A stretch of DNA of 35,488 nucleotides from Bacilli bacterium (GTDB lineage Bacteria > Bacillota_I > Bacilli_A > RFN20 > CAG-826), in NCBI GenBank assembly GCA_045597865.1, contig JAZLKX010000048.1, forward strand, positions 1-35,488. The letters run 5' to 3'. The notes beneath the pieces are model-generated. The model saw nothing but the letters and a program-made list of their open reading frames with translations, was not told the DNA's origin and made no database searches. Made by a program: the position numbers and the translations under genes. Shown here in pieces: positions 8,072 through 25,622 of this stretch. The first letter of the stretch is position 1. Every line of letters starts with the position of its first letter.

Positions 8072-8095
8072 GATGCGTATGTCGATTTTATTTTA

Positions 8096-8137
8096 TATCT
8101 TTGTATTTATTTAGTCTAAATAAACATTACAAAACTA
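8096..8137. promoter_or_regulatory. Face-to-face Bacteroidota promoters around a perfect 19-bp palindrome
   Basis: TATCTTTG (+) at 8096-8103; TAGTTTTG (-) at 8130-8137; TTTATTTAG-T-CTAAATAAA at 8106-8124. Confidence 0.65.
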
Positions 8138-8143
8138 CTAAAT

Positions 8144-8656
8144 ATGAAAGATATATCCAAAACCCATGATGTGTTTATCTACATTATCGTGCTAACTTGC
8201 TTTGCAATGGCTCATTATGATGGTGCAGGATATGCTTATGGCTCTACATATCAGAGGTTTATTTATATGTTTGCACACGCCAACATACTTCACCTTGCAA
8301 TGAATCTCATTGCCTACTTTTCCATATCACAGATGGTGAAGGGAACAGCCATGCAGTACACTCCATTCCTTGCTGCATTCCTTGCCACATTCGGGACAGA
8401 ATGTGATATTCCTACTGTTGGTCTGTCTGGCGTTATATATGCCATGCTTGCCACAACGACATATTACTTTGAGCAATCACGATGGAGGATATTGTCGTTT
8501 GCCGTAGTAGCTAATGGTCTGTACTATCTGATAGGCAGTGTCAATGTAGGACTGCACGTCCTCTCTTTTGCATACTCGTTGATATTCACATTAATATATG
8601 ACTTATATGAAAGAAGAAAAAACTCCAACATTCAAGGAAGAGTACGAGTTTTCTAA
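8144..8656 (+). CDS. Rhomboid-family intramembrane serine protease (170 aa)
   Basis: YMFAHANILHLAMN (HxxxxHxxxN), catalytic TVGLSG (GxSG), and LHVLSF His in the last helix; multiple hydrophobic helices. Confidence 0.88.
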   Translation: MKDISKTHDVFIYIIVLTCFAMAHYDGAGYAYGSTYQRFIYMFAHANILHLAMNLIAYFSISQMVKGTAMQYTPFLAAFLATFGTECDIPTVGLSGVIYAMLATTTYYFEQSRWRILSFAVVANGLYYLIGSVNVGLHVLSFAYSLIFTLIYDLYERRKNSNIQGRVRVF

Positions 8657-8948
8657 GCAGGCTCTCGCTCGCCTTGAGGTAAACATGGACTACTTGGTAA
8701 AACTTAATCTCATCATGAAGAATGATGGTTGTATCAGTAATCCGAATGTGTTGAAACTTATTATTGATTTGATTGAATGTGACGGCTACTCTGTGGCTAA
8801 ACTCATAAAGCCACTGACGAGAGCATATCGCAGAGCAATAGGAAGAAAGAAGGTCGTTGTAAGAAGCTATGGTATCTTGGTAGGAGAGAAGGAAGAGAAG
8901 AGGGAAGCACGTAATGAAGAAGGAGAAAAGAGAACTGACGATAGGTGA
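8598..8948 (+). CDS. Hypothetical basic protein (alternative start 8607)
   Basis: Bridges and overlaps both rhomboid and terminase on the same strand; no recognisable motif. Confidence 0.6.
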   Translation: MTYMKEEKTPTFKEEYEFSKQALARLEVNMDYLVKLNLIMKNDGCISNPNVLKLIIDLIECDGYSVAKLIKPLTRAYRRAIGRKKVVVRSYGILVGEKEEKREARNEEGEKRTDDR

Positions 8949-10950
8949 AATCGTCATAGAGAATCGAAGGCGTAATGAGGAGCGCAATGCACCATACGAC
9001 CCAGTGACTGGTCTTGGTTCTACTGCCGTTCCTCGAACACTCGTGCATCTATCTGATTCACCTATCGGCAGCGACCTTTATCTGCCTGACGAAATGCTCG
9101 AATACGAGGCTGTCAAGAATGCAGTCGAGTGTGGCTCTATCAAACAATCACTAACTAATGGTGGTCTATATCCTACCGATGAGAATGTCATTGGCTTCTG
9201 GAAGGAGTTCTGCAAGCTCCGCATCCAGTATGACTTCGAGTTCTGGGCAGCATCATTCGTAGTTATCCAAGACAAGGAGACAGCAGCCGATATTCCTTTC
9301 AAGCTGAACAGAGGTCAGCGGAGACTGCTTGACAAGTTTGAAGAGATGAGACGCAAGGGCAAACCTATTCGTATCATTCTCCTGAAGGCTCGTCAGTGGG
9401 GTGGTTCTACTCTTACACAAGTATATATCGCTTGGCTTCAGCTGGTAATCAAACGTCAGTGGTCTTCCGTTATCTGTGCCCATACGGAGAACACATCACG
9501 CAACGTGCGAGGTATGTACTCCAAACTTTTGGAGAATTATCCTCTATGGCTATGCGATGCAGAGAAGCGTGATGACATTAAGCTATCCAACTATGAAAAC
9601 TCACAGAAGACTCGTATCATCAAAAACAGAGGCTGTAAGATTTCAATCGGTTCTGCCATGAAACCTGATGGTCTTCGTGGTCTTGATGTTGCCTGTGCAC
9701 ACTTGTCCGAGATTGGTCTGTTCCCATCTACGATACAGACAAAGCCAGAAGACCTTGTTCAGTCTATCACGTCTGGTATTCAGAATAAGCCTAATACCAT
9801 TATCGTATATGAATCAACTGCCAAGGGTGTAGGTAATTTCTTCCATCGTGAATGGAAACGTGCCACTACGTCCAATCCGCAGGAGCGTTCCAACTTCGAG
9901 CCAGTATTTGTGCCTTGGCATCTGCTTGATCAATATACTCTTGAGATTGAGGACTCAGTAGCGTTCGCAAAGACTCTTACTGAAGAGGAGATTGAACTGT
10001 TTGAAGAGGGAGCAACTCTTGAAGGTATCGCATGGTGTAGGGAGAAGATGCTTGAATACTCTGATATATGGCGTTTCCATTCGGAGTTTCCACACAATCC
10101 TACCGTTGCATTCCAATCAACGGGACATCCGTTCTACAATCCAGACGACGTGTCACGTCTTGCCAAGACTTGCACGAAGCCTACAATCATTGGCGACCTC
10201 GTTGCTGATGAGCCTTTCGGTGGATATGCTGCATTGGAGAATATCCACCTTGTTCCTAATGACAGAGGTCTGTTCAGAGTATGGAACAAGCCAGCCACAT
10301 ACGAGGCTGTCACAGATAGATATGTCGTGGTAGTGGATATTGGTGGTATGTCACAGCAGGCTGACCGATCAGTGATATGCGTGTTCGACAGATACCACAT
10401 GGCTAATGGTGGTGTTCCTGAAGTGGTTGCTGAATGGTGTGGGCATATAGCTCACTATAAACTTGCATGGCTTGCCATTCAGGTAGCTACGTGGTATCAT
10501 GATGCCTTGCTCGTAATAGAGTCAAACACACTTGAATCACACAGGACGGAGGGCGTTCACTCTGAGTTTATCATGGACGAGATTTCTCGTTACTACAGCA
10601 ATATGTATTGCCGTACTCCTGCCGAGCAGGTAAGGCAAGGTCTGCCTCCTAAGTGGGGTTTCCACACTAACAGACAGACCAAGACTATGGTGTGTGACCA
10701 TCAACGTAAGGCTCTCGAACATAGCCTATATCTTGAGCGATGCGAGGAAGCCGTTGATGAACATCGTACACTTGAGATTAAATCAAGCGGAGAGATAGGT
10801 GCTTCAGATGGCAGCCATGACGACCGTCACATCACTCGCGCCATCGGTGTGTGGGTATGCTATCAATATCTTAGCGTTCCACAGAAGTATGACGACTTGA
10901 AGGACGATCAGACATGGAGCGTATCTTCTACCTCTATGGCTTCGTTTTGA
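8914..10950 (+). CDS. terL: Terminase large subunit (678 aa)
   Basis: FKLNRGQ adenine-binding motif, Walker A LKARQWGGST, Walker B AHLSE, coupling motif YESTAKG, RNase H-like nuclease VVVDIGG...VIESN...HDDR. Confidence 0.95.
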   Translation: MKKEKRELTIGEIVIENRRRNEERNAPYDPVTGLGSTAVPRTLVHLSDSPIGSDLYLPDEMLEYEAVKNAVECGSIKQSLTNGGLYPTDENVIGFWKEFCKLRIQYDFEFWAASFVVIQDKETAADIPFKLNRGQRRLLDKFEEMRRKGKPIRIILLKARQWGGSTLTQVYIAWLQLVIKRQWSSVICAHTENTSRNVRGMYSKLLENYPLWLCDAEKRDDIKLSNYENSQKTRIIKNRGCKISIGSAMKPDGLRGLDVACAHLSEIGLFPSTIQTKPEDLVQSITSGIQNKPNTIIVYESTAKGVGNFFHREWKRATTSNPQERSNFEPVFVPWHLLDQYTLEIEDSVAFAKTLTEEEIELFEEGATLEGIAWCREKMLEYSDIWRFHSEFPHNPTVAFQSTGHPFYNPDDVSRLAKTCTKPTIIGDLVADEPFGGYAALENIHLVPNDRGLFRVWNKPATYEAVTDRYVVVVDIGGMSQQADRSVICVFDRYHMANGGVPEVVAEWCGHIAHYKLAWLAIQVATWYHDALLVIESNTLESHRTEGVHSEFIMDEISRYYSNMYCRTPAEQVRQGLPPKWGFHTNRQTKTMVCDHQRKALEHSLYLERCEEAVDEHRTLEIKSSGEIGASDGSHDDRHITRAIGVWVCYQYLSVPQKYDDLKDDQTWSVSSTSMASF

Positions 10951-11290
10951 TGCGTTTTAAGGTTAGAGAGTCGAACGTGGATTTACTGAGTGCTATTCCA
11001 TCATTACCTGCGTGACGCATTAGGTAATGGAAAGCATAGTTCGTTCGACTTCTCCATACCTTACTTCTCCTCGTGAGCCATGCACTGCCGAATGGCTTAT
11101 CGCTTACAATGACAGAAGGCAATACTCCGTTCCTAACTGCATATACCACCATCTCATTGCCACCCTTCCTGGCAACAATGCAGTTCACCTTGTGGCGTAC
11201 CTCCAGCTTCAGACCTCTAATTACATCCGCAGTCTGGAAGTACAGGTCTCTGATTTTCCTCATGAATGATTTTGATTTCTTTTCTTTCAT
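10934..11290 (-). CDS. Hypothetical basic protein (118 aa)
   Basis: Last ORF of the leftward operon; overlaps the terL 3' end convergently. Confidence 0.55.
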   Translation of the reverse strand: MKEKKSKSFMRKIRDLYFQTADVIRGLKLEVRHKVNCIVARKGGNEMVVYAVRNGVLPSVIVSDKPFGSAWLTRRSKVWRSRTNYAFHYLMRHAGNDGIALSKSTFDSLTLKRIKTKP

Positions 11291-11831
11291 CTCTATTCTG
11301 ATTATTTGTATCGGTTTCTATAAAGTCCTTTATCTTTCGTGGCTTTGCACATCTGTGGAAATGTCTGTCAATCATCTCCTCTGCTATAGGCATGACAGCT
11401 CCTCTGCCTTGCTTTCTTCTTATATTGTCAAGAATGACATCATCCTGCACTGAGAGCGCAATACGTTCGTCTCTCGTAGCCTGTTCCTCTGCAAAGTATT
11501 CTCTAACTATGCCGACGAAATCTTCAAACGAACGAGCCACATTTACCTTATAGCCTTCTTTTCTCAGCTTGTCAATGACGTTCTGCTGATTATCGCTCAA
11601 TCGTCCTGAGTTGCCGTTCTTCATCTCGATATACAGTCCATGATAGCCACCCATTGCACATGGCACACATAGGTCTGGCACTCCTGAGAGTACACCTTCA
11701 TCTTTGAGATTCTTTGCCGTTATTACATTGCGGAACGAGCCATTGGGTATGGCAAATATTATCTTGTCCGCATATTGGTATCTAAACCATCTGACGCAAT
11801 TAACTTGCAGTCTGTGTTCCAAGTCCTTCAT
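11217..11831 (-). CDS. VRR-NUC domain nuclease with C-terminal extension
   Basis: EHRLQ...FAIPNG...GVLSGVPDL...GLYIEMK...GRLSDNQ PD-(D/E)xK signature; GGAGGGAGAAG upstream of the ATG. Confidence 0.88.
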   Translation of the reverse strand: MKDLEHRLQVNCVRWFRYQYADKIIFAIPNGSFRNVITAKNLKDEGVLSGVPDLCVPCAMGGYHGLYIEMKNGNSGRLSDNQQNVIDKLRKEGYKVNVARSFEDFVGIVREYFAEEQATRDERIALSVQDDVILDNIRRKQGRGAVMPIAEEMIDRHFHRCAKPRKIKDFIETDTNNQNRDERKEIKIIHEENQRPVLPDCGCN

Positions 11832-12360
11832 CTTCTCCCTCCATTAATTCTAAAAGTTCCCATTCATGTATTCCGCAGTCCTGGGCAATACGCACCCTGC
11901 TTCCGTTTCTGCTTATTATAGTCGCTTTCTTGCCTGCATATTGCATACGTATCTTGTATCGTTCTCTCTGCCAGTTGCCATTGTCATCAATGAGACCAAG
12001 GTCTTTCAATAGCCAACCCTTGTCTTCATACCATGATGCTGGTCTGAGAGTATGCGATGTTCCTACGCCAAACACTCCGCACTCCCAATACTTGACACGT
12101 TGCTCTATCTCTTTGGCTTTAGCACCTACTCCAGTCATTATATATTCACTCCATCGGTCTTTGAAGCCGAAGAGGTTTCCCACTTCGGACTTCAACTCCT
12201 TGCGTAAGGTGCGATTCTCAAATGGCAAGCACCCTAATATTGTCTTGTATGTATGTCGCAGTACTGCCTGTCTGTCCTTTACGCTTTTCACCGATAGACC
12301 ATAGTCATAAATACACTCATCAGCAATAGCGTTGATATATCTTATGACACCTTTATCCAT
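11800..12360 (-). CDS. Hypothetical protein (186 aa)
   Basis: Start overlaps the stop of the upstream 1372-aa gene; Trp-rich; no motif recognised. Confidence 0.7.
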   Translation of the reverse strand: MDKGVIRYINAIADECIYDYGLSVKSVKDRQAVLRHTYKTILGCLPFENRTLRKELKSEVGNLFGFKDRWSEYIMTGVGAKAKEIEQRVKYWECGVFGVGTSHTLRPASWYEDKGWLLKDLGLIDDNGNWQRERYKIRMQYAGKKATIISRNGSRVRIAQDCGIHEWELLELMEGEDEGLGTQTAS

Positions 12361-15300
12361 TATCTTACCTTCTTACTGCTTTTTTCACCCCAACTCATCT
12401 TGGCTTCTACTCCGAGACATTCAAGTTCACTATGAGCTCTCAATCGTCCTGCAAAGGCAATGCGTATATATCTCATACTCATTCTGTGGAGCTTGGCAAT
12501 TATGTTGCGTGTCTCGCCTCGTACACCGCCAATGCCTATCATTGAGAACTTCGTTCCGTCCTGTGAGCCATACACAATGATGCTTGCCTTGTGGACGAAC
12601 TTCCTGTCCTCGTCTGTAAGCGGTCTGTTTAGAGCAACGCTGAAGTTGCCGTAGAGCCATGCCTCTGTGAATGTCTTGGCAAGTTCTCCGTCAATGACAA
12701 TAGGACGTGTGAGGAAGAAGCAGTCTGTAATGACAGCATCATTGTTCTTGCCCATGTCATACACTTCATAAGAAACATCACCATCACTTTCGCTTTTGCT
12801 TACGAAATACGTTCTTGGGTAGTCATTGATGAAGTACTCAATCTTTCTCATCACCTTAGACCAACCGCCATCAGAGAATATGTATGTGTAATCCTTGTCT
12901 GGATTGCTCACCCACACCTCAGAATGCGTATATCCCCAACCACATTTGGCGTTCTTGATATACTCCTTGAAGTCCTCATCAGTAGGAGCAGTCCGCATAC
13001 ATTCATTGAGCCATGAGTCATTGCGTACCTCACCATTGTTACCTCTCTTGTTGAGTATCACTGGCATTGAATCCAATCTCTCATAGCCATACTCTTCTGC
13101 GAATTGCAGAGGTCTGCCTTCAACTGGCTTGCTTATCTCATGATTCTGCGAACCGCTAATCATGAAGAGACCTCTCTCCGATGGATATACAACCGCATCA
13201 TCAATAGGTGTGATGCCAAGTGAGTTGTTGCATACCTCTCGTGATATTGGTCGCGCGTATGGATATACAAGCTGACCAGATGAGTCAACAAACAAGCCAT
13301 AGATGCCATCGCTACAGAAGACATACAGAGGAGCATCGCCCCACTGACCAGTAGATAATGCAACAGTATTGCTGCACATTCCTACAATCTCTCCATTGCC
13401 TACTTGGTATGTATTCTCAGCAGGGAAGAATAGCGGTGACTCCGTTGCAGATACCTTGAGTACATTACGTCTGTATGTCTTGTTGTTAACTTCGCTGATA
13501 CCGACAATCTCATTGCCTTCAACCATAAACAAGTCGTTTGCATCGTATGATGTCTCATGGAAGTAATAGTCCTGCTTGTTTACATTGTTCCCAAAGATGT
13601 CCGTCTTGTTACTTGCTTCAGCATCTTGCCACCAGCATATAGGTTTCAGGTCACCACTGACAAACGAAGCACACTCAACAGCCTTGAATGGCTTGAGCTC
13701 AAACACAGACTCCTTAACCTTTACCTTGCCATTCTCGACAGCAGTAACATATCCGATACGCATCTTTGTTGCTTGCGAGCTCGGATATGAAATCATCGGG
13801 TTGAGTGGCTTGTATTCTGTGGCGTTCTTCTTGCAGAGTCTGCCTACCGTTATGTTTCCGTCTTCTGTCTTTATGTCAACGATTACATAGCTTGTAACAC
13901 TACCGCTAACGCCAGTCATGCTTGTCATTGCCCACTGCTCACACACTGGATATGCGCAGGCTTCACGAGACTGAATGTAGTAGTTTGCATAGTTCGCTTT
14001 GAACTTTCCAGAAGCAATATCGATGTTTTCTTTCTTCTTGAACTCATCGTCACTCAGAGTTATCTTTTCAGACTCATATATGGTAGTGATGTCTTGGTTG
14101 TTTGACTCTGTAGTTATTGAAACTATATAGTTGTAGTGAGTAGATGATACGCTAATAGGTTCTGTAGATATAACACCATCGTATGAAATTACTGTGAACA
14201 TGTTTGACTGACCTTGCTTGGAAACCTTAATATCCTTCGCGTTCCTGTTCGCTGTGTCAGTTATCCATTCGCTTTCGTATAGGTATGCGTAATAAACGCA
14301 GTTGTTGTACGTGAACTTGTATGCGTCGCGATCGGCAGAATATGTCTGTCCGTTCACGTTTACCTCGCCACTTGCCTCATCTATTCTATATAGCTTGTTG
14401 TCAACCTTGATATAGTAACCAGTACTGCTAATGAAACGCATCCAATACTTGTTATTGTCCTTGCTTTTTGCCGAATATGGAGCGCGAGAATGTTTTGACA
14501 TTGCAGTAAGAGACCATTGCTCTGGTATCTCCATTTCATTCAATGGATAACCGCTGAACTTGGTTTCCGTTATGTTTCCGATGTGAAGTCTTCCGTTATA
14601 CATATATGCACACTCTGCCATGAAGCCGTTGCGTTGCATCGTTGCATCAACAGGAAGTGTCTCGCTTTCTTCAAGGATATTTAGAATTTCGTCCATCTTG
14701 ATGTCTATCCATTCTCCCTTGCGTATTGTCTTGCATGGAGCTGAATAAATCTTGTAGAGGACAGCAGTGTCTTCTATCTCCTTCTTTATCTCTTCGTCTT
14801 TCTTTGGCTTTGCATAGATTGTATAACCGCTATGCTGAAGCTCTCTTGCTGCGTGCGAACTGCCAGTACTCTTCACTTCGTATGTCTCAATGAGGTCGCT
14901 CGACATACCGCTCTCGTTGGCATAATAGATTTCGCTCGACATGAACACACAGACATTCTTGACTATATCATCAACTACATCGTCAAGCATATCGTCAATT
15001 CTTATCTGTAGCTTCTGTCCTGCCAGCACACCCCAGCAAGTATGGAAGTTGTCTGCCTGCTCTCCAGAAGATATATGGCTTCTTGATGTTCCAACCTGAG
15101 CTATTGTTCCTGTAATAGCAAATGCGTTTGGTGGATTGAAGCAGTCTGGGTGCATGATAAGCCAGTTCTTATTGAAGAGCCTCTTGTTCTTGTATGAGTT
15201 AAACGTGCTCTTTGTGGTCATTTGTTCGCAGCAACTGCACGAACGCATTGTAGCATACTGGTCTGCATATTCAAAAGAATCCAAGTCCTTGCTATCGTCG

Positions 15301-16478: not shown

Positions 16479-16499
16479 ATTTCCCTCTGTAAATCAATA

Positions 16500-16507
16500 C
16501 AAAAATA
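16500..16507 (-). promoter_or_regulatory. Putative -7 promoter box for the 1372-aa gene
   Basis: TATTTTTG on the minus strand 21 bp upstream of the ATG, just after a terminator. Confidence 0.4.
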
Positions 16508-16509
16508 AT

Positions 16510-16540
16510 AAAAAAAGGTGACACATTTCTGCATCACCTT
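16510..16540 (-). terminator. Intrinsic terminator
   Basis: Minus strand AAGGTGATGCA-GAAA-TGTGTCACCTT followed by a T run, just after the 364-aa gene stop. Confidence 0.75.
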
Positions 16541-16546
16541 AATTAT

Positions 16547-17641: not shown

Positions 17642-17652
17642 CTTTCCCTCCT

Positions 17653-17898
17653 TTAAATTGCTTTCTTACCAAAGTAAACATTCATCGCTGCCTCGTTGGA
17701 TTTCTTGTTGTTCTTCTCGTCAGCAGCATCCACATCGCTCTTAGGCATCAATGTCTTAGCCAAGTCTGTCATCAGCTTCATTCTGTCCTTTGCATCGAGC
17801 TGTGCAATATCATCCTCGCTATTGGCATACAGGCTGTCAAACACCTTGAGCATCTTTTCCTTGACAGATAGTCTGTCCTTTCCGTTTATCTCGTTCAT
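17653..17898 (-). CDS. Small helical protein, possible terminase small subunit-like
   Basis: DIAQLDAKDRMKLMTDLAKTLMPK resembles the 'L..kdRl....l....PK' pattern of small packaging-associated proteins. The ORF is well supported; the function is tentative. Confidence 0.45.
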   Translation of the reverse strand: MNEINGKDRLSVKEKMLKVFDSLYANSEDDIAQLDAKDRMKLMTDLAKTLMPKSDVDAADEKNNKKSNEAAMNVYFGKKAI

Positions 17899-18659
17899 TA
17901 TCGTATAGGTTTAATGGTTGGGTTCTTTATTCTCTGCTGCAACCAAGGGTCTTGGTAAGTTCCGAACGAACTCAGCTTACCACCATTCTGTAGTGCGTAT
18001 TGATTTGCAGTGCTCAAGCTCTGGTCGTATGTCGGATATTGAGGCTGTTGCTGTACTTGCTTTGTATCTGCCATGTTGCCACCTTCTGGCTTGGCATTTG
18101 TTCCGTTCATCAAACCGCTACTTATAGCACCCTGTGCAACTTGTCCGAAGTTCTGTATGTTCTTGACCGCATTTGCAGCACTCTGCATCTGCAACTTCTG
18201 CTGAGCATCATCTGCATTCATCTGACGCTGGAACTGATTGTTCTGTGCAGCCATCCAGTTCTGACCAATGTGTCTACGAGTTCTCTCTGCGTTGGCTCTG
18301 ATATTGCTTACTGCATCCGAGTATGCGCTCATAGCTCTGCCTTGCTGAGCAACAGCCTGTTCGTGGGTAGCACCAGTAATGACACCTCTGTTCTGCTGAA
18401 TGTCGGTCATTCTCTGGTTATACTCTCTCACCTGTTTCAAGGCATTGGCACCTTCTGCCGTACGCATCGGGTCTCTGTAATACTCCATGCGGTAGAAAGC
18501 ATTCTCTTGAGCAGCCTTTGCATCAATCTTTCTCTGCTTGTCTGCCTCGTAGTCCTTCTGTCGGTCGCTTGCTTTCTTCTGAACGACTGCTGAACTCGTA
18601 GCTGTTGCAGCAGCAATAGCCGTACTTGCAATCAATAGTCCTGCCGTAAGTCCACACAT
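17898..18659 (-). CDS. Internal virion (ejection) protein, T7 gp14 / P22 gp7-like
   Basis: Met-Cys start, hydrophobic Ala-rich N-terminus (MCGLTAGLLIASTAIAAATA), then a Gln/Ala-rich coiled coil. Confidence 0.65.
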   Translation of the reverse strand: MCGLTAGLLIASTAIAAATATSSAVVQKKASDRQKDYEADKQRKIDAKAAQENAFYRMEYYRDPMRTAEGANALKQVREYNQRMTDIQQNRGVITGATHEQAVAQQGRAMSAYSDAVSNIRANAERTRRHIGQNWMAAQNNQFQRQMNADDAQQKLQMQSAANAVKNIQNFGQVAQGAISSGLMNGTNAKPEGGNMADTKQVQQQPQYPTYDQSLSTANQYALQNGGKLSSFGTYQDPWLQQRIKNPTIKPIR

Positions 18660-18662
18660 AGT

Positions 18663-19166
18663 CTATTCCTCCTGTTTCTTTTTTGTATTTTTCTTCATTC
18701 CCTTGAAATCATCTTCGTCAATGTCTATGTCGAGATGTCTCTTCGTCTTGTCAACAAGTATCTTCTGCAATACCTTTGCCCATCGTTCGTCTGAGCATGA
18801 TGATATGTTCTCCAATATACTCCACACCTGTAACATACAGAAAACTGCACTCATGATGTTTGCAAGATACATCTCTACGAATGTGAGTATGTGCGTGTCA
18901 ATCATATACATAAGAACAATCAGTGAGCTTATTCTCAGCATTGTTCCGATAATCTTGCTTGCATCTGCCGAGTTGAATTTCTTTGCCTTCTGCTTTGGAT
19001 AATACAGGGCAACACGCCTGCTTAAATCCCATGCCGATATAGCATCAAGCACTATCGCAATGATACATATTGCCAAGTATGGAAACATCGGAGCAACATA
19101 GCCAATGAAGGCAGCAACGATACATGATATGAACTTATACACGTTATAAACGAAATTCTCTTCCAT
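18663..19166 (-). CDS. Holin (phage holin 4_1-like), 167 aa from MEENF
   Basis: Three to four hydrophobic helices, IVLDAISAW, WSILENISS, highly charged C-terminal tail; GGAGGGTAAA directly before ATG 19166. Confidence 0.8.
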   Translation of the reverse strand: MEENFVYNVYKFISCIVAAFIGYVAPMFPYLAICIIAIVLDAISAWDLSRRVALYYPKQKAKKFNSADASKIIGTMLRISSLIVLMYMIDTHILTFVEMYLANIMSAVFCMLQVWSILENISSCSDERWAKVLQKILVDKTKRHLDIDIDEDDFKGMKKNTKKKQEE

Positions 19167-19232
19167 TTTACCCTCCTTCCCTGTGTGTATGTGCCAGGCA
19201 GATGGGGAAACCATCTGCCTTGTCACATCATG

Positions 19233-21761
19233 TTAATCTGTCAATTCGCTCTTAACTGCGTTTAGAAGAGACTGATTGCCACCAAAGAACATATCAATGA
19301 TATTATCGTATGACGCTGGATTTGCAATTAGTTCTATTGAGTTTTCATACTCTGAAGATGAAATGTCAACAACCTTTGTTGCCAATACGCTTGTGTTCTT
19401 GTCAACATATACTGCCGTAAACTTGTTGCCAAGCCATACCACAACACACTTGTCGTTGATTGACATAACCTGAACATCACCACGATACACAACCACAACG
19501 CTAAGTCTTGCTCTACTGCTTGAGTTAGGACGAAGCACTGTTGGTATTACGACAGCAGCACTGCCATTGATTGTGTCAGACTCATCATTAAATATAATCT
19601 GCTGAGTACCGTCTGTCATGCTTAACGACTTCAAATCTCCAAGATAGTAATCCTTGACATGGCGTCTCGACATAACCGAATACTGACCTATGCCTTGTAG
19701 TGAAGGAGCATCATATCGCAAAGCATCAACGTATGGCAAGTCATATACAATACACTCTACATTGAATAGAATATTCTCCGTAACGAGGTTTCTTATCTGG
19801 TAGTTGTATATCTTTAAAACAACTCTCTCCTTGCTATCGAAACGAAGATAGAACGACTGGCTTGAAGAGTTACCTATGAGCTTGAGCTTTGTCGGCTCTG
19901 TTCCATATATGTCCTCTTCGTCAACAATCTTCAGGTCTGTTCCATTGTTGACACCTGTATCGTTTGAGTTGAATGTAACAAGAATGTTGTTGTTCGCACC
20001 AGATGTAGTGACAATTCTGATATGCGTATCATCGAGCTTTGTTACAACAGAACCATTACCTTCTGCTGTTACGTCTCCAATAGCATTCTCAACAACCTTA
20101 TCTGCTATACTGAAAACAACTTGTATATCTCCAGTCTGCTTTGCAGGGATAGTAAACACGATATTGTTGACATTATCACTGGTAACTGAAGCAGGGTTAA
20201 ATCCACCTTTGGTACTAGAACCTACAGAAAGAGTTTGAGTGCCAACATTAAACGCTGCAATACCTACATTCACATTCTGAGAGTCTTCAGAATATGTATA
20301 TTCAGTTGCATACGTTCCATTGTGGAGGCTTGCATCCATTGGTTGACCAGTGGTGTTCAAGAAGTAACGTATCTCGTACTTGGCTCTGCTTGCATAGAAG
20401 CTGATACTTGTCCTTCCTCCATACGACAATGTAACAGGATTGTCTTCTGAATAATTATCTGAAGAGTTGTAACCTGCCACATATACAGGATAGACATATA
20501 CACGCTGACTACTATTAGGCGTTAGATTGAATGATGATGAGTTTAAGAAAGTCCAACTGCCATTTTCAATCTTATACTTCACTCCTTCAACTCCAGTACC
20601 CTTTGAAATTGTGACAGTGTATGTATCTAATTTCGTTACAGGCTTCCAACTCTGGTTAGATGCGCCCATACTGCCAGCCTTGCTCGCACTACCTTCTATC
20701 TTATAACCATTCTTTACAGATGCTGTAAGTTCGTAATAGTAACCATACTTGATAGTGACATCGCGATTCGTGTCTGTATATCCAGATACTACACTTGTTG
20801 TCTTACTGCTATTCGTCCACACCTTATACGAAACGCCCTGAATGCCTGCATCGCTACAATCAATAGTGAACTTATAGTCAATGGCGTTCCACTGAGCAAT
20901 AAACTCCACATTACCCTGAACGGTATATGATGATCCGGCAGCGTACGTTGTACCTCCGTTTATTTTCCATCCACCGAATACGTGTCCAGTTCTTGACATC
21001 GTATTCGATGCAGGCAGAGTTATCGTATCACCCTCCGTTTTTGCAACACTGCTTGTAGATGCGCTTCCGTTATACGTACCGCCATTTGGATTGTATTTAA
21101 CCGTATATGTGTTTGGAATCTTCCTCCAAACAGCATATACTGTTTTACTTGATTTCCATCCGCTATACGTTATTGACGTTCCATAGTTAGATGAAGTGGC
21201 AGAGCTTGAATCTGCCCAGCCAAGAAAGTTATATCCTGCTCTTGTCGGTGCTGAGCTATATGTTCTTCCATCAACAGCTTCTTCTTGATAAGTAGTAGCT
21301 CCACCAGAGAACGCTCCTCCGTTTGCATTGTATGTGCAATATACAGCTAATGACAGACCTCCAAGAGTTTGAGTAAAACTGCTTCCACTCTTTTGAGTAA
21401 GAGTTATACGACACTCAAATGATGTTCCATACTTTGATTCGTAGCCTTGGTCGCTACTTCCCAATATATATATACACAACAATTCAGGATGATACTGCTC
21501 TCCATTAACAATGTTTTTATATAGCACATTATTAACATAGTCATTTTTAAATTCGCTTTTGACTAAGGCTGTCTTATCATTTACTCCATCAAGGTTGAAT
21601 TTATACACGTAACTCTTTCCCTGCTCAACCTTTATGCCAGAGCCTTTGGCTGTAGATGCGCTACTTCCAACACTTCTGTAATTATTTGTGTTAAAAGTTG
21701 AAGCGTTAAAGTCGTCGTAGCTCGTCTTCCCTGAACCGTATTCATAAAGTACATATCCCAT
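19233..21761 (-). CDS. Fibre/adhesin-like virion protein with Listeria-Bacteroides (InlB B) repeats, 842 aa
   Basis: YNANGG...PTRAGYNFLGW...VYAVW and YNPNGG...RTGHVFGGW...FIAQW, followed by more divergent beta repeats; Ser/Thr/Tyr/Gly-rich. Confidence 0.75.
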   Translation of the reverse strand: MGYVLYEYGSGKTSYDDFNASTFNTNNYRSVGSSASTAKGSGIKVEQGKSYVYKFNLDGVNDKTALVKSEFKNDYVNNVLYKNIVNGEQYHPELLCIYILGSSDQGYESKYGTSFECRITLTQKSGSSFTQTLGGLSLAVYCTYNANGGAFSGGATTYQEEAVDGRTYSSAPTRAGYNFLGWADSSSATSSNYGTSITYSGWKSSKTVYAVWRKIPNTYTVKYNPNGGTYNGSASTSSVAKTEGDTITLPASNTMSRTGHVFGGWKINGGTTYAAGSSYTVQGNVEFIAQWNAIDYKFTIDCSDAGIQGVSYKVWTNSSKTTSVVSGYTDTNRDVTIKYGYYYELTASVKNGYKIEGSASKAGSMGASNQSWKPVTKLDTYTVTISKGTGVEGVKYKIENGSWTFLNSSSFNLTPNSSQRVYVYPVYVAGYNSSDNYSEDNPVTLSYGGRTSISFYASRAKYEIRYFLNTTGQPMDASLHNGTYATEYTYSEDSQNVNVGIAAFNVGTQTLSVGSSTKGGFNPASVTSDNVNNIVFTIPAKQTGDIQVVFSIADKVVENAIGDVTAEGNGSVVTKLDDTHIRIVTTSGANNNILVTFNSNDTGVNNGTDLKIVDEEDIYGTEPTKLKLIGNSSSQSFYLRFDSKERVVLKIYNYQIRNLVTENILFNVECIVYDLPYVDALRYDAPSLQGIGQYSVMSRRHVKDYYLGDLKSLSMTDGTQQIIFNDESDTINGSAAVVIPTVLRPNSSSRARLSVVVVYRGDVQVMSINDKCVVVWLGNKFTAVYVDKNTSVLATKVVDISSSEYENSIELIANPASYDNIIDMFFGGNQSLLNAVKSELTD

Positions 21762-21774
21762 ATCTTATGTCCTC

Positions 21775-22920
21775 CTATTCTGATTTAGTTACTGTTAATA
21801 TTCCATAGCCGTCAATAGTGCTGTCTATCTCGCCAAGAGAGAGAATCTTTGACGTGCTAACGCCATCAGACCAAGTAAATATTCGTTCTTTTGTCGTTGT
21901 AGCGAACGGAATGACAAGCGATGAACCACACTCGCATCTGATAATGATATTGGCATCACCTTCTCCGTTGATTTTGCACTTGATTTCAATACCTCCAACG
22001 CCATACTCATTGCTTACTATCGTTGGCAGCTGAATGAACTCCACACTTATAACTGAAATATCGTCACTCTGTATGTCTATGATATTGTCATAAGAGTTAT
22101 CTGGAATGAGTTCATCTTCCAACGTGTATGAGTTATGCTCTACGAAATACGTTACGTATGTCTTACCGAACATATCTCGTGTGATGCCGTCTGTGATGTC
22201 AACCTCTGCATCCGTATCGTCTGTGAACTTGCGTCTATCCTCAACCTCCTCAAGTCTGTTGACAACATCTTCGCAAATAAGTTTTAGTGTGATCTCATTA
22301 CCTTGCCTGTTCTTTATCTTGATGGTGTATGCATTACCACCCATTGCGATGTTATTGAATCCAACAATCTCAATGGAACGAACATCTTCGCCTTCTCCTC
22401 TAACACTATTCTCGCTATTGATTGTGAATGATGAACTGAATGTGCCTATTGTTTCTCCATTGTCAACAATGCTGGCTTCATTACATGACACATCAATAGA
22501 ACTGCTTGATTCGATAAGTATCTTTGTGGCGTTGTCTCTTTTGATTTTTACAAGCAACTCCTGACCATCTACATACAAGTTATCCTTGAAGCGTATGTAA
22601 CCATCATCGTCACTACCGCACTTACACATATTCTCATCTACATATTCCTTCAGGTTCTTCAGCTTGGCATCTACCGCTGTCTTGGTGTAGTAGTTGTCAA
22701 ACATCTTTCTGAGCCATTTAAGAAACTCTCGGAAATCGAAATAAGTCATGTGGTCATGACCTACTCGGTTCGGTATCTTATGGCTGTCGAAGAGAAGGAT
22801 ATAGTCGCTCTCAAGATTGCTCGACTTACCATCCTCAACGAGTTTCATTATAAGGCTGTCAATACGCTCCTTGCACATCTGCCAGAGCTTTTCCAGCATC
22901 TTCTTCATCGTATTCTCCAT
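21775..22920 (-). CDS. Hypothetical acidic virion protein (381 aa)
   Basis: Lies in the structural operon; NYYTKTAVDAKL motif typical of fibre proteins; beta-rich C-terminus. Confidence 0.6.
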   Translation of the reverse strand: MENTMKKMLEKLWQMCKERIDSLIMKLVEDGKSSNLESDYILLFDSHKIPNRVGHDHMTYFDFREFLKWLRKMFDNYYTKTAVDAKLKNLKEYVDENMCKCGSDDDGYIRFKDNLYVDGQELLVKIKRDNATKILIESSSSIDVSCNEASIVDNGETIGTFSSSFTINSENSVRGEGEDVRSIEIVGFNNIAMGGNAYTIKIKNRQGNEITLKLICEDVVNRLEEVEDRRKFTDDTDAEVDITDGITRDMFGKTYVTYFVEHNSYTLEDELIPDNSYDNIIDIQSDDISVISVEFIQLPTIVSNEYGVGGIEIKCKINGEGDANIIIRCECGSSLVIPFATTTKERIFTWSDGVSTSKILSLGEIDSTIDGYGILTVTKSE

Positions 22921-22932
22921 GTTTCCCTCCTA

Positions 22933-23610
22933 TTATACATTCCACATCTGAAGCATGACGCTTATCTGTTCGTCAAACACTTGGCTCTGCTGAGCTTCAC
23001 CAAACACCTTCTCCACTATGCTCGCACATACGAGAGTGACGAACTCGTCAAACTCTTCTGGCAAGTCCTCTGCCTTCGTGATTGGTATATACCTGGCAAA
23101 CATGACTGGCTCATTGTCTCGGCACGAATAGACCTCTATGTTACCGAAAGCTACAGCCACCTTTGGCTTGCTCTGTATGCCCTTGCTGTGTATGAACTGC
23201 TGATTCTTATACTCATCGTCTGTCACTTTGAGCGTATCAGCAATGGCTCTCTCCCAGCATTTCATCCTTATGCCGAACAACTTGATGAAGTCGCTTGGCA
23301 CAGGAATATAGCCAACTCCGTTCTCAATGACTGGCAATGTAGTGATGGTCTCTCCATCAACCTCAACCTCTCTCAGAGGAAGACTCTTGGCTACCTTGTC
23401 AAGTCTATGATGCGGAACTATTGTCAGAACCTTTCGCGCTGCTTCGTCAAGATACTCATTGATATAGGTTGCGATAGGGTAGAAGGCTCTATCCTCGCTA
23501 CCTTCATCAAGAAGAAAGTCTGTGTCCTCTCCGCGAGTCCACTCCTCAAGCCTTAGTCTTGTCTTCTCAATGAGAAATCTTCTGCGCTCATCTATCCCTC
23601 TCAAATCCAT
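22933..23610 (-). CDS. Putative head-tail adaptor (225 aa)
   Basis: INEYLDEAARKV...GYIPVPSDFIKL...KPKVA...DLPEEFDEFV pattern of adaptor / tubular-A-like proteins; two genes downstream of the capsid gene. Confidence 0.55.
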   Translation of the reverse strand: MDLRGIDERRRFLIEKTRLRLEEWTRGEDTDFLLDEGSEDRAFYPIATYINEYLDEAARKVLTIVPHHRLDKVAKSLPLREVEVDGETITTLPVIENGVGYIPVPSDFIKLFGIRMKCWERAIADTLKVTDDEYKNQQFIHSKGIQSKPKVAVAFGNIEVYSCRDNEPVMFARYIPITKAEDLPEEFDEFVTLVCASIVEKVFGEAQQSQVFDEQISVMLQMWNV

Positions 23611-23611
23611 A

Positions 23612-24022
23612 TTACTTCAAATTAGGAAAAGACACGCCAAGCTCTTCAGCCTTTGCAAGCATCTTCTCGCGAGTATCAACTTCTTCCATCTCACAACCGA
23701 ACTGCGTAACGAGAATGTTGACTGCGCTGTTCACGCTCTTGACGCGTGGCATCGAACGTGAAGGCTCTGTATTCTTGCAATCGTCAGCCTTCTTGTCTGC
23801 ATCAACCTCACCGCCAGTAGTACGGAACAACTTGATGATACCCTTGCAGAACCAAGGATGTGCCTCAATAGCTCGCTGTACTTCATCGTTTGAGGTAGAG
23901 TATTTACACGTGCAGTCGAGTGGCTCGAAGTTGTCAAACGTGATACCTTTCTTGTAATCGTGAACAACAACCTTGATGAACGCTCTCTGCATTCCCGTAA
24001 TCTTATATGTCTTTGTTACCAT
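23612..24022 (-). CDS. Phage hypothetical protein downstream of the capsid gene (136 aa)
   Basis: YSTSNDEVQRAIEAHPWF and C-terminal AKAEELGVSFPNLK; operon position. Confidence 0.7.
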   Translation of the reverse strand: MVTKTYKITGMQRAFIKVVVHDYKKGITFDNFEPLDCTCKYSTSNDEVQRAIEAHPWFCKGIIKLFRTTGGEVDADKKADDCKNTEPSRSMPRVKSVNSAVNILVTQFGCEMEEVDTREKMLAKAEELGVSFPNLK

Positions 24023-24036
24023 GTCGCAAATGTTTT

Positions 24037-24077
24037 AAAAAGAAAGGGAGGTACTGCACTATGGCAGCAGCCTCCCC
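24037..24077 (-). terminator. Intrinsic terminator after the major capsid gene
   Basis: Minus strand GGGAGGCTGCTGC-CATAGT-GCAGTACCTCCC followed by TTTCTTTTT. Confidence 0.75.
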
Positions 24078-24108
24078 ATGTCTATCTATTATGGTTAATC
24101 AGAATTGA

Positions 24109-25530
24109 CTATTCTGGCATGATAAGCGCGTGGCACTTAGCATACTTCAAGCAGATTGCCGATACCTCTGACAATACGTTAGAGTCAGCATCCATGATAC
24201 CAGAAGAACGAAGGTCGAGCTTCTGACGAGACATTGCACGATAGACGCGCTTGTCAAGGTGCTGTGGGTCAATAACGATTGCCGAATTGCTCCACTTCTC
24301 ATCGTACTCACCGACTACGTTGAAGATAGGGAGTGGTATGAGGTTGAGAGTACCATGATTTGATACCCACTTACGCCATGTCAAACCGAATACCTTGTCA
24401 GTCTCAGTAGCGTTGATCTGACGCTGGAGTGATGGGAGCTTAGAGAGTGCAGTGATAAAGCCTGCACCTGCAAGCAAGATACGGTTGTTAGAACCGCTGT
24501 TGCCTACGAAAATCTTCTCCATGAGCTCAACAGCATCGCCATCGTCGAATGTGTTAGCGTTGTATGTGAGAACTGAACCGCCCTTCTCTACAATCTGCTG
24601 GATGATACCAGAGCAAGAGTAAACAGGGAGACCGCCATGCTCTGCATCAACATTGAATGTCTTACCGAGCTTACCCCAGATAAACGTCTTTTCGATGTCG
24701 AGCTTGTAGTTCTCAATTGCCAACTCGTCATCGTCTGCCATTGTCCAGCCTGCTTCGTTTGGAGTCTGCTGTGACCAGCCTGACTGAAGTGTTGAAGACA
24801 TGAACTTCTGGCAGTAGCCGAAGTCCTTACGTGGCAATGCCGAGTAAGAAGGTGTCTTCAAGGCAAGCTCGTCTGCCATGTGACCGAGACGAATGACATC
24901 AGAATCAGCTGTAATGAGAGCTTCGTTGAATGTCATGTGCTCTGGAGAATCAGGCTTCTTTGTACCGTTGATTGGAATACAAGTCAACGTCTTTGTCTCG
25001 AAGTCGATAGACTTCACATACATTGTGAGAGGTGATGTACCGCCAGTCGTAGCTTCACCCTTGAGAGTGTAGCCATTCACGTTAGGGAACATGATCTGGT
25101 CTGTAACATCGAATACACTCACGTTGTCAACGCGAACAGCGAATGTATCAGGCAAACCTTCGTTTTCAGTCTTTACGACAGCACCTACTGTCTTAGCGTG
25201 AATCTTACGAGTGTCCTGCGAGTAATACTTGAACTCAACAGAGTTTACATGAACAATTTTTCCTGTACGTGTAATTGTATCAACTGGAGAGATGTAAGAC
25301 TTAATTATCAGCACTCCCTTGTCAAGAGTATCCAGCTTGTACTGAGTGCCGAGTGAGTTGTCGCCATCACGACGCTCAAGAGCATCAGTCTTCACCTTGT
25401 CGCTGATGTGCATGCCCACATCTTCCTTACCATTTGGCTCGAAAGCCATTGCCATCATAGCACCTCCGTCAATGGCAGCAAGCACTGCCGTAACGAGGAG
25501 TGAAAGCAAATTCATCAAATACTTCTTCAT
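24109..25530 (-). CDS. Major capsid protein (HK97 fold, SU10/DUF5309-like), 473 aa, with hydrophobic N-terminal leader
   Basis: GYCQKFM...YKLDIEKTFIWG...YSCSGI...IFVGNSGSNNRILLAG...FGLTW...HGTLNL...SEVSAICLKYAKCHALI; has its own promoter and terminator. Start moved to 25530 because AGAGGGAAAT precedes it and the track's start overlaps the -7 box. Confidence 0.85.
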   Translation of the reverse strand: MKKYLMNLLSLLVTAVLAAIDGGAMMAMAFEPNGKEDVGMHISDKVKTDALERRDGDNSLGTQYKLDTLDKGVLIIKSYISPVDTITRTGKIVHVNSVEFKYYSQDTRKIHAKTVGAVVKTENEGLPDTFAVRVDNVSVFDVTDQIMFPNVNGYTLKGEATTGGTSPLTMYVKSIDFETKTLTCIPINGTKKPDSPEHMTFNEALITADSDVIRLGHMADELALKTPSYSALPRKDFGYCQKFMSSTLQSGWSQQTPNEAGWTMADDDELAIENYKLDIEKTFIWGKLGKTFNVDAEHGGLPVYSCSGIIQQIVEKGGSVLTYNANTFDDGDAVELMEKIFVGNSGSNNRILLAGAGFITALSKLPSLQRQINATETDKVFGLTWRKWVSNHGTLNLIPLPIFNVVGEYDEKWSNSAIVIDPQHLDKRVYRAMSRQKLDLRSSGIMDADSNVLSEVSAICLKYAKCHALIMPE

Positions 25531-25572: not shown

Positions 25573-25602
25573 CAAAGATAATTATTTATTTAGATTAAAT
25601 AA
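25573..25602 (-). promoter_or_regulatory. Capsid gene promoter with adjacent palindromic operator
   Basis: TATCTTTG (-) at 25573-25580; TTATTTAGATTAAATAA at 25586-25602. Confidence 0.7.
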
Positions 25603-25622
25603 AAATAAAGTGGGAATAATTA

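What the first reader, a model, noticed from the sequence alone, without database searches (positions are those of the whole stretch)
8144..25530. Candidate new system: rhomboid protease-dependent maturation of a membrane-anchored major capsid protein
Seen: (a) an intact minimal rhomboid (HANILHLAMN, GLSG, LH) is the first gene of the terminase operon; (b) the capsid protein begins MKKYLMNLLSLLVTAVLAAIDGGAMMAMAFEPNG, i.e. a basic tip, a hydrophobic helix, then a helix-breaking GG and Ala/Met-rich segment; (c) no HK97/T4-type prohead protease is recognisable in the head operon; (d) both promoters carry the same palindromic operator. Established: rhomboids cleave in or next to TM helices destabilised by Gly/Pro, after small P1 residues (e.g. 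AarA on TatA), and HK97-fold capsid proteins normally lack membrane anchors. Inference: procapsids assemble tethered to the inner membrane and are released by a phage intramembrane protease co-expressed with the packaging motor. I do not know of a described example. An alternative is cleavage by host signal peptidase at the AMA motif.
Basis: partly seen in the sequence, partly recalled or inferred. Interest (0 to 1): 0.9.

Follow-up and report, generated by a model that had tools for sequence, protein, structure and literature searches.

The report
Phage rhomboid paired with membrane-anchored capsid protein
A group of gut Bacteroidales phages makes its capsid protein with a signal-peptide-like membrane anchor and also carries its own small rhomboid membrane protease beside the DNA-packaging gene, which suggests an undescribed, still untested way of maturing a phage head.

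Summary
All four observations hold. ORF 8144-8656(+) is an intact six-helix rhomboid. It passes Pfam's cut-off, has the GlpG fold, and keeps the His-x3-Asn, Gly-x-Ser-Gly and TM6 His residues in 29 of 29 relatives. ORF 24109-25530(-) is an HK97-fold capsid protein of the SU10 type. It begins with a basic tip, a 17-residue hydrophobic helix, a Gly turn and a small-residue motif.

The pairing recurs. The same small rhomboid lies between a small conserved gene and the large terminase, next to a leader-bearing capsid gene, in:
- 29 of 44 IMG/VR relatives;
- three cultured Bacteroides phages;
- four prophage modules, three of them found by searching with the rhomboid first;
- one metagenome contig.

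Leaderless relatives lack it: 0 of 80 loci, and 2 of 2 syntenic sister contigs.

The most likely reading (about 0.5) is that the rhomboid removes the capsid leader. Several points count against it:
- The rhomboid's active site should face the periplasm.
- The leader looks like a Sec signal peptide with an Ala-x-Ala site.
- Other membrane leaders exist in relatives without a rhomboid.
- The capsid tree needs only three gains or losses.

Nothing was tested biochemically. Seven literature searches found no description.

The parts
8096..8124 (+). Promoter region of the rhomboid-terminase operon: a TAnnTTTG-type box (8096-8103) followed by a 19-nt palindrome (8106-8124)
   Evidence: The palindrome occurs 6 times (strand-matches) against 0.03 expected.
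8144..8656 (+). Small six-helix rhomboid intramembrane serine protease, 170 aa. Invariant residues: His45, His50, Asn54, Gly93, Ser95, His138.
   Evidence: PF01694 at 34 bits. Invariant residues in 29 of 29 sequences. Profile match to GlpG 2nr9, E 1.2e-12. AF2 pLDDT 89.5 and Foldseek match to GlpG, TM 0.65. K+R 8.7 on the inside against 0.55 on the outside.
8598..8948 (+). 116-aa ORF between the rhomboid and the large terminase, overlapping both. Function unknown; possibly a small terminase.
   Evidence: No Pfam or PHROG match. No BLAST similarity to the phrog_27246-type gene that precedes the rhomboid in relatives.
8914..10950 (+). Large terminase subunit, 678 aa
   Evidence: phrog_2 at E 8e-16. 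Homologues at E 1e-120 to 1e-197 lie directly downstream of the rhomboid in relatives.
25444..25530 (-). Capsid-protein leader, residues 1-29: basic tip, hydrophobic helix 4-20, Asp-Gly-Gly turn, then the Ala/Met motif that holds the proposed cut site
   Evidence: AF2 helix 2-20.
25336..25443 (-). Disordered, acidic linker of the capsid protein, residues 30-65, ahead of the HK97 core
   Evidence: AF2 pLDDT below 50 for residues 21-65. The Pfam model starts at about residue 61 (62 of the translation scanned, which began one codon early).
24109..25335 (-). HK97-fold core of the major capsid protein (SU10_MCP type)
   Evidence: PF17236 at E 2.7e-28. Foldseek 9in6 at E 3e-23, also 7qof and 7z45.
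25573..25603 (-). Promoter region of the capsid gene: the same palindrome (25585-25603) followed by a TAnnTTTG-type box (25573-25580)
27346..28104 (-). Scaffold-like helical acidic protein. It is a homologue of the gene directly upstream of the capsid gene in Bacteroides phage BKO1-TP3.
   Evidence: BLASTP E 1e-10 against BKO1-TP3 gp48. phrog_22323. A degenerate palindrome and box lie at 28125-28154.

Best explanation
This is a dedicated protease-substrate pair in the head-assembly module of a temperate phage of Bacteroidales type. The capsid protein is made as a precursor. Its first roughly 27-29 residues form a signal-peptide-like membrane anchor: a Lys tip, a 17-residue helix and a Gly turn. 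The phage's own minimal rhomboid is expressed with the terminase from a promoter that carries the same palindrome as the capsid promoter. The rhomboid cuts just beyond the helix, at the conserved Gly-(Val/Ala)-x-(Met/Leu)-Ala(-x-Ala) motif. That frees a capsid protein whose N-terminus starts about where leaderless relatives start. SHOWN: both genes are intact and belong to these families, and they travel together across distant phages. INFERRED: the leader enters the membrane, it is removed, the rhomboid is what removes it, and assembly or its timing depends on this. To keep the capsid body in the cytoplasm, I propose that only the leader and the 35-45-residue disordered linker loop into the membrane or translocon, and that the linker slips back after the cut. 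That step is pure inference.
For: The rhomboid is intact. The leader and motif are kept in capsid relatives down to 43% identity and in IMG/VR relatives at 26-31% identity. The rhomboid is present in 29 of 44 IMG/VR records, and in every one of the 29 it lies 1053-1904 nt upstream of the capsid gene on the opposite strand and directly upstream of the large terminase. Three cultured Bacteroides phages have the same layout. A rhomboid-first search of 401 Bacteroidales genomes gave 6 phage-type hits. Four of them lie beside a leader-bearing capsid gene, two lie in remnants without any capsid gene, and none lies beside a leaderless one. Among leaderless relatives, 0 of 80 loci hold a rhomboid. In 25 of those genomes searched whole, the only strong hit is a separate leader-type prophage. 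Two syntenic sister contigs with leaderless capsid genes have a non-membrane 197-201-aa ORF in the rhomboid's slot. An unrelated metagenome contig, L171, again has leader, rhomboid and terminase together. In four relatives whose loci I listed (L017, L003, L019, L012), and in the head-gene part of two more (L016, L040), the capsid leader is the only predicted membrane segment other than the rhomboid. Leaderless homologues begin 10-14 residues before the conserved Gly-x-His, close to the proposed cut. No S78 or ClpP-type protease was found in 5 of 5 complete relatives.
Against: Topology: K+R counts place the rhomboid's active-site face outside in 29 of 29 sequences. The leader's basic tip and acidic far flank predict N-in insertion, which would place the cut site and everything after it in the periplasm. 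The known bacterial substrates that I recall are N-out. The motif also reads as an Ala-x-Ala signal-peptidase site. Related phages have capsid leaders with membrane segments of other designs and no rhomboid: L001 and L036 with the terminase region covered, L038 in a 93% complete record, L025, and 7 of the 80 loci. So a leader does not require a phage rhomboid. The capsid tree needs only 3 changes of rhomboid state and offers 1-3 independent contrasts, so shared descent could explain much of the pairing. The rhomboid stays with the terminase, not with the capsid gene: in the window they are 16.9 kb apart. A separate scaffold gene means a protease-free head pathway is not unusual in itself.
Confidence: 0.5

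Rival explanations
1. Host signal peptidase I, or another host protease, removes the leader at the Ala-x-Ala site. The phage rhomboid has a different task in the same module, for example clearing the tens of thousands of leftover leader peptides from the membrane, or cutting another phage or host membrane protein.
For: The leader has the three-part layout of a Sec signal peptide, and its motif ends in Ala-x-Ala in most lineages. Capsid leaders with membrane segments occur in relatives that lack a phage rhomboid. 21 of the 25 Bacteroidales host genomes searched hold their own rhomboid-like genes. The window has other membrane proteins: a holin-like ORF at 18663-19226 and a 253-aa ORF with a hydrophobic N-terminus at 17898-18659.
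Against: This reading does not explain why the rhomboid is gained or lost together with this one leader design. The position three residues before the first conserved Ala is often Met or Tyr, which I recall as poor for signal peptidase. The position four before it is usually Val, which I recall as a rhomboid preference. Signal peptidase faces the same topological problem.
Confidence: 0.28
2. The leader is not removed. It stays on the capsid protein as an inward-facing hydrophobic helix or a membrane tether, and the rhomboid is unrelated to the capsid.
For: No cleavage has been shown. Several different hydrophobic N-terminal designs exist in this capsid family.
Against: Leaderless homologues build the same fold without it. 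The conserved small-residue motif after a helix breaker is typical of a processing site. A hydrophobic helix on every subunit would crowd the DNA-filled interior (inference).
Confidence: 0.1
3. The pairing is a by-product of descent. The rhomboid is a passenger gene (moron) lodged in the terminase operon of one phage lineage, as annotated in Stenotrophomonas phages DLP3 and DLP5, and has no role in head assembly.
For: Only 3 state changes are needed on the capsid tree. A 175-aa rhomboid of unassigned function lies among unrelated genes in DLP3 (passages of PMC7326821). A pair made of the small conserved gene and the rhomboid survives without other phage genes in a bacterial chromosome (L162).
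Against: The gene keeps all catalytic residues and its exact slot in phages whose capsid proteins are only 26-31% identical. At least 185 clusters at 50% identity exist at E 1e-30 or better. The slot holds something else, or nothing, precisely where the leader differs.
Confidence: 0.12

Closest known systems
E. coli / H. influenzae GlpG (rhomboid family, MEROPS S54)
   Same: Six-helix core, His-x4-His-x3-Asn on TM2, Gly-x-Ser-Gly at the start of TM4, His on TM6, and N-in/C-in topology.
   Different: No cytoplasmic domain and a very short L1 loop. It is phage-encoded inside a terminase operon. Identity is about 15-19%.
Providencia AarA cutting TatA, and rhombosortase cutting GlyGly-CTERM proteins (recalled, not from a call)
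   Same: A dedicated rhomboid paired with a cognate short membrane signal on a partner protein. For rhombosortase the pairing was first recognised by co-occurrence. A Gly-rich helix breaker lies next to the helix.
   Different: Those signals place the cut site at the outer end of an N-out helix. Here the order is mirrored (basic tip, helix, Gly turn, motif, then body), and the body must end up in the cytoplasm.
Prohead proteases of HK97 (S78), T4 gp21 (S77) and the ClpP-like type
   Same: A phage-encoded protease in the head module that would remove an N-terminal part of the capsid protein.
   Different: Those are soluble enzymes packaged inside the procapsid. None is found here or in 5 complete relatives. 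This enzyme is an integral membrane protein.
M13 procoat / host leader peptidase, and membrane-bound initiation of T4 proheads (recalled)
   Same: A phage coat precursor with a cleaved signal peptide (M13), and head assembly that starts at the inner membrane (T4).
   Different: M13 coat is a membrane protein of a filamentous phage and is cut by a host enzyme. T4 attaches through its portal, not through the capsid protein.
PINK1 cut by the mitochondrial rhomboid PARL (recalled)
   Same: A rhomboid cut inside or near a membrane helix lets the large C-terminal part return to the compartment where it was made.
   Different: Eukaryotic organelle, opposite helix orientation, no assembly role.
Rhomboid genes already annotated in phages
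   Same: GenBank calls the homologues in Bacteroides phages BF1-TP2 and BS-TP4 rhomboid proteins. BFVD lists 155-160-aa 'GlpG-like' proteins of uncultured podoviruses at TM 0.68-0.74.
   Different: These are names only. The main text of the paper that describes the isolates has no occurrence of 'rhomboid', and no link to the capsid leader is made.

Membership tests
Rhomboid intramembrane serine protease (PF01694 / S54) | Profile score above the curated cut-off | tested here: met
   34 bits against 22.6. The profile of 29 relatives hits GlpG at E 1.2e-12.
Rhomboid intramembrane serine protease (PF01694 / S54) | Six-helix GlpG-type fold | tested here: met
   AF2 pLDDT 89.5 and pTM 0.85. Foldseek TM 0.65 over 176 columns to 6pj9.
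Rhomboid intramembrane serine protease (PF01694 / S54) | Catalytic Ser in Gly-x-Ser-Gly (TM4), His on TM6, His-x3-Asn on TM2 | tested here: met
   Ser95, His138, His50 and Asn54 are invariant in 29 of 29 sequences. The equivalence to GlpG residues rests on the HMM alignment and on recalled numbering.
Rhomboid intramembrane serine protease (PF01694 / S54) | Proteolytic activity | not testable with these tools
   Needs an enzyme assay.
HK97-fold major capsid protein, SU10_MCP (PF17236) | Profile score above the cut-off, and HK97 fold | tested here: met
   99.7 bits against 24.1. Foldseek matches to phage capsids at E 3e-23 to 1e-8.
Canonical prohead protease (S78, S77, ClpP/S49) | A gene of one of these families in the phage | tested here: not met
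   No hit in the window's ORFs, in the assembly or in 5 of 5 complete relatives for PF04586 and PF00574. The PF03420 search had no positive control. The window is an incomplete phage genome.
Sec signal peptide cut by signal peptidase I | Basic n-region, hydrophobic h-region, c-region with small residues at -3 and -1 | tested here: inconclusive
   The layout is visible by eye. No SignalP or TMHMM tool was available. Only a Kyte-Doolittle scan was run.
Rhombosortase / GlyGly-CTERM system | C-terminal Gly-Gly, helix and basic tail on the substrate | tested here: not met
   The signal here is N-terminal and in mirrored order. It may work in a similar way but is not a member.

The most novel reading that the evidence does not exclude
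In this widespread clade of Bacteroidales phages, HK97-fold capsid subunits are first held at the cytoplasmic membrane by a translocon-engaging leader, and heads form there or are timed from there. A phage-encoded intramembrane protease is the maturation or release enzyme, and the disordered N-arm slides back into the cytoplasm after the cut. That would be a head-maturation route with no soluble prohead protease, and the first viral use of a rhomboid with a defined substrate.
Probability: 0.3. Interest if true: 0.9.

Novelty: new variant of a known kind. Interest (0 to 1): 0.78.

Why it matters
Capsid maturation in tailed phages is thought to rely either on soluble proteases packed inside the procapsid or on no protease at all. 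It is treated as a cytoplasmic process. A conserved pairing of a membrane-anchored HK97 capsid precursor with a phage-borne intramembrane protease would add a third route. It would also give bacterial rhomboids, whose natural substrates are mostly unknown, a clear and abundant candidate substrate. The topological puzzle it poses can be tested directly. Three cultured Bacteroides phages carry the pair, so the experiments are feasible. The family is large: at least 185 clusters at 50% identity score E 1e-30 or better.

Tried and rejected
Complex prediction of the rhomboid with capsid residues 1-70 returned 'no answer' (score 0.15 against a mark of 0.32). It counts neither for nor against binding.

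Single-protein pattern scans of IMG/VR with the capsid protein and with the rhomboid found nothing. So did the 5-sequence rhomboid alignment. Only the capsid alignment reached relatives.

tblastn of the window's rhomboid against the phage collection found nothing. A relative's rhomboid found two isolates.

The window's 583-aa ORF (6320-8071) is not detectably related to the BKO1-TP3 portal, and the 268-aa ORF (26060-26866) is not the scaffold homologue. I could not name the window's portal.

The idea that the host lacks a rhomboid of its own (the only hit over the family's cut-off in the assembly and 30 relatives is the phage's) was dropped as evidence. Contig C48 is a compositional outlier in its bin, with GC 0.43 against about 0.33 and tetranucleotide r 0.62 against 0.92 or more for the other 14 contigs over 30 kb. 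It is probably mis-binned.

The palindrome is not found in any of the other 156 loci.

The sigma-70 and terminator scan of 7900-11400 was at chance level.

The ORF in the rhomboid's slot in leaderless sister phages has no protease signature, so 'replacement by another protease' is not supported.

The Asp_protease_2-like ORF of the window is absent from 5 of 5 complete relatives, so it is not part of the conserved system.

My regular-expression classing of leaders misjudged several rows (for example L016, L022, L074 and P0002). I use only that call's count of rhomboid changes and independent pairs.

For the tree I left out 7 of the 44 IMG/VR rows: L007, L020, L027, L028 and L043 as duplicates or near-duplicates, and L037 and L042 as truncated.

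Supplementary files were not consulted because they are closed. The annotation tables of PMC12694917 may mention the rhomboid.

Full report
WHAT IS IN THE WINDOW. The 35.5-kb window is a fragment of a temperate tailed phage. It carries:
- an integrase (32805-33899);
- an HTH repressor (34686-35120);
- a giant polyvalent protein with ddrB-ParB and PBECR1 domains (1-6300, running off the end);
- a VRR-NUC nuclease, a holin-like protein and a protein with Listeria-Bacteroides repeats;
- a large terminase;
- a capsid protein of the SU10 type.

Promoter boxes of the TAnnTTTG type suggest a Bacteroidales host, and so do the hosts of the nearest cultured relatives. The contig is a compositional outlier in the assembly it was binned with, so I draw nothing about the host from that assembly.

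THE OBSERVATION.

Rhomboid. The 170-aa ORF at 8144-8656 passes Pfam's rhomboid cut-off. In an alignment with 28 relatives the only invariant residues are His45, His50, Asn54, Gly93, Ser95 and His138. These are the positions of the rhomboid TM2 motif, the Gly-x-Ser-Gly serine and the TM6 histidine. A profile of the 29 sequences hits GlpG structures at E 1.2e-12 over the whole six-helix core. The AF2 model (pLDDT 89.5) superposes on GlpG with TM 0.65. The gene overlaps a 116-aa ORF, which overlaps the large terminase.

Capsid protein. The capsid ORF starts at the ATG at 25530. Its model has one N-terminal helix (2-20), a disordered stretch (21-65) and then an HK97 fold that matches phage capsids.

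Protease. No S78, S77 or ClpP-type protease is seen in the window, in its assembly, or in five complete relatives. The S77 search lacked a positive control.

Palindrome. A 19-nt palindrome lies before both genes. Degenerate copies lie before the scaffold-like gene and at 28798-28816. No shuffle reached the observed count.

THE PAIRING RECURS. This is the main result.

Close relatives. The rhomboid's and the capsid protein's nearest homologues come from contigs of the same lengths, 34,759 and 31,258 bases. That suggests the same contigs but does not prove it. Capsid homologues down to 43% identity keep the leader and its motif, while five more distant ones start about 10-30 residues before a conserved Gly-x-His and have no leader.

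IMG/VR. An alignment-based scan gave 44 loci at 21-32% identity. Most begin with two to five Lys/Arg, a 15-20-residue hydrophobic run, a Gly/Ser turn and a motif that reads Gly-(Val/Ala)-x-(Met/Leu)-Ala-x-Ala.

Rhomboid in those records. Searching the whole records for PF01694 found a match in 28 of 44, 23 of them over the cut-off. The family's own profile added one more. In all 29 the rhomboid is a 152-272-aa ORF (most 160-200). It lies 1053-1904 nt upstream of the capsid gene on the other strand and directly upstream of a close homologue of the window's large terminase.

Cultured phages. Bacteroides phages BKO1-TP3, BS-TP4 and BF1-TP2 share the order: small conserved gene (phrog_27246), rhomboid, terminase. 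This block is divergent from scaffold-like gene, capsid gene. In the window the two operons are 16.9 kb apart and convergent, yet both keep the palindrome.

CONTROLS.

(i) Rhomboid first. The rhomboid profile was run over 401 genomes of the order that holds one of the host genomes. It matched at 17 places in 16 genomes at E 1e-12 or better.
- Six places score 75 bits or more in ORFs of 167-195 aa. Four of these lie beside a capsid gene with the leader (L157, L158, L159, L160).
- The other two of the six lie in degraded remnants with no capsid gene (L161, L162).
- The remaining 11 places are longer host-type genes, or small chromosomal rhomboids with no phage genes beside them. I checked three of the latter.

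(ii) Leaderless relatives. Of 80 prophage loci in Bacteroidales genomes with a related capsid protein, none has a rhomboid within the locus. Only 2 of the 80 loci include this terminase type, so I also searched 25 of the genomes whole. They hold only weak host-type matches (29.4 bits or less, ORFs of 253-353 aa), apart from one strong hit that belongs to a separate leader-type prophage.

(iii) Sister clade. Six metagenome loci were found. Five capsid genes are leaderless. Two of those contigs (L167, L168) keep the full synteny and carry a non-membrane 197-201-aa ORF where the rhomboid would be. The sixth, a distant one (L171), has leader, rhomboid and terminase together.

(iv) Other membrane segments. 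In four of the six relatives I listed (L017, L003, L019, L012), the capsid leader is the only predicted membrane segment in the locus apart from the rhomboid. In L016 and L040 this holds for the head-gene part of the locus only.

RESULTS AGAINST A SIMPLE READING.
- Leaders without a rhomboid. Some relatives have capsid leaders of other designs and no rhomboid. L001, L026/L027 and L038 have two hydrophobic segments. L014 and L024/L025/L028 have a long N-terminal extension followed by a helix. L036 has another form. Seven of the 80 loci also have one. L011 has a leader like the paired ones but no rhomboid, on a 9.9-kb contig whose upstream part holds unrelated genes.
- Few independent events. 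On a capsid tree built without the leader columns, rhomboid-positive rows fall in four deep lineages. The fewest changes of state is 3, with 1-3 independent contrasts, which is too few for any test.
- Topology. Lys+Arg counts put the N-terminus, the TM2-3 and TM4-5 loops and the C-terminus inside (mean 8.7) and the other loops outside (mean 0.55) in 29 of 29 sequences. The catalytic serine should therefore face the periplasm, as in GlpG. The leader's basic tip and the acidic residues after it predict N-in insertion. The motif, and formally the whole capsid body, would then be outside, which cannot be true for a DNA-packaging head.
- Signal peptidase. The motif also contains an Ala-x-Ala site that host signal peptidase I could use.

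HOW IT MOST LIKELY WORKS. I consider it most likely (about 0.5) that the leader is the rhomboid's substrate. The proposed sequence is as follows. The leader and the 35-45-residue disordered, acidic linker enter the membrane or a translocon as a loop, while the folded or assembling HK97 body stays in the cytoplasm. The rhomboid, made together with the terminase, cuts at the motif. The linker then slides back, much as I recall PINK1 returning to the cytosol after PARL cleavage.

Two details favour a rhomboid over signal peptidase. The residue four before the conserved Ala is usually Val, and the residue three before it is often Met or Tyr.

The rivals are these:
- host signal peptidase does the cutting and the rhomboid clears leader peptides or cuts something else (0.28);
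- the rhomboid is a passenger gene (0.12);
- the leader is retained (0.10).

COMPARISON WITH WHAT IS KNOWN. The enzyme is a member of the rhomboid family by every feature that sequence and fold can test. The capsid protein is a member of the SU10-type HK97 family. The system is not a member of any prohead-protease family, nor of the rhombosortase/GlyGly-CTERM system, whose signal is C-terminal and in the opposite order. It may nevertheless work like those dedicated pairs.

Small rhomboids in phages are already named in databases. GenBank names them for BF1-TP2 and BS-TP4. BFVD lists 'GlpG-like' proteins of uncultured podoviruses. DLP3 and DLP5 have a 'rhomboid membrane protein' (passages of PMC7326821).

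Seven full-text searches listed no paper that links a phage rhomboid to a capsid protein or describes a membrane-anchored HK97 capsid precursor. The main text of the paper that reports the three isolates has no occurrence of 'rhomboid' (PMC12694917, passages only). In the crAss001 structure paper (PMC10172136, passages only) the transmembrane mentions concern cargo proteins. Every other paper I saw only in search listings.

VERDICT. The pairing is real, widespread and undescribed in the literature I could search: at least 185 clusters at 50% identity score E 1e-30 or better. The mechanism is plausible but unproven, and it carries a genuine topological problem that makes it more interesting, not less.

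Noticed in passing
window 1-35488 (G000:C48): The contig is a compositional outlier in its assembly: GC 0.43 against about 0.33, and tetranucleotide correlation 0.62 against 0.92 or more for the other 14 contigs over 30 kb. It is probably a mis-binned phage contig. The only rhomboid hit over the family's cut-off in the assembly and 30 relatives is this phage gene.
   Followed up: partly
window 34193-34624 (-): A 143-aa retropepsin-like ORF (Asp_protease_2, E 3e-7) lies directly beside the HTH repressor gene in the lysogeny module. It is absent from 5 of 5 complete relatives. It may process the repressor.
   Followed up: partly
window 17898-18659 (-): A 253-aa Gln/Ala-rich protein begins with an uncharged Ala/Thr/Gly-rich hydrophobic helix followed by Lys-Lys, which would predict N-out insertion. 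It lies among the tail genes, next to a holin-like ORF (18663-19226). It is a possible ejection protein or a second rhomboid substrate.
   Followed up: no
window 25623-25781 (-): A 52-aa ORF with one strongly hydrophobic helix and an acidic tail lies just upstream of the capsid promoter. Not verified as a gene.
   Followed up: no
window 1-6300 (-): A giant ORF of more than 2100 aa runs off the window and carries ddrB-ParB and PBECR1 nuclease domains. It resembles the 'DarB-like' 5,500-aa gene of BKO1-TP3, which lies in the same neighbourhood.
   Followed up: partly
L162 7095-8062 (G234:C6): A pair made of the small phrog_27246-like gene and a 188-aa phage-type rhomboid sits alone among ordinary bacterial genes, with no terminase or capsid gene. 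It is either a remnant or a domesticated pair.
   Followed up: no
L001 6398-7807; L026 841-2232; L038 921-2318: Capsid proteins of a neighbouring clade carry two consecutive hydrophobic segments at the N-terminus, a possible helical hairpin that ends in Val/Ile-Pro. No rhomboid is present. Another protease or no cleavage may apply.
   Followed up: partly
L167 7990-8595 (-); L168 7989-8582 (-): In leaderless sister phages the slot between the small conserved gene and the terminase holds a soluble 197-201-aa ORF with no significant family match.
   Followed up: partly
L014 1-10106: This IMG/VR contig is a perfect large inverted duplication: the capsid gene and its neighbours appear twice, head to head. 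It is probably an assembly artefact.
   Followed up: no
window 28798-28816 (+): A fourth, degenerate copy of the palindrome (3 mismatches) lies at the boundary between the structural genes and the early or lysogeny genes.
   Followed up: no
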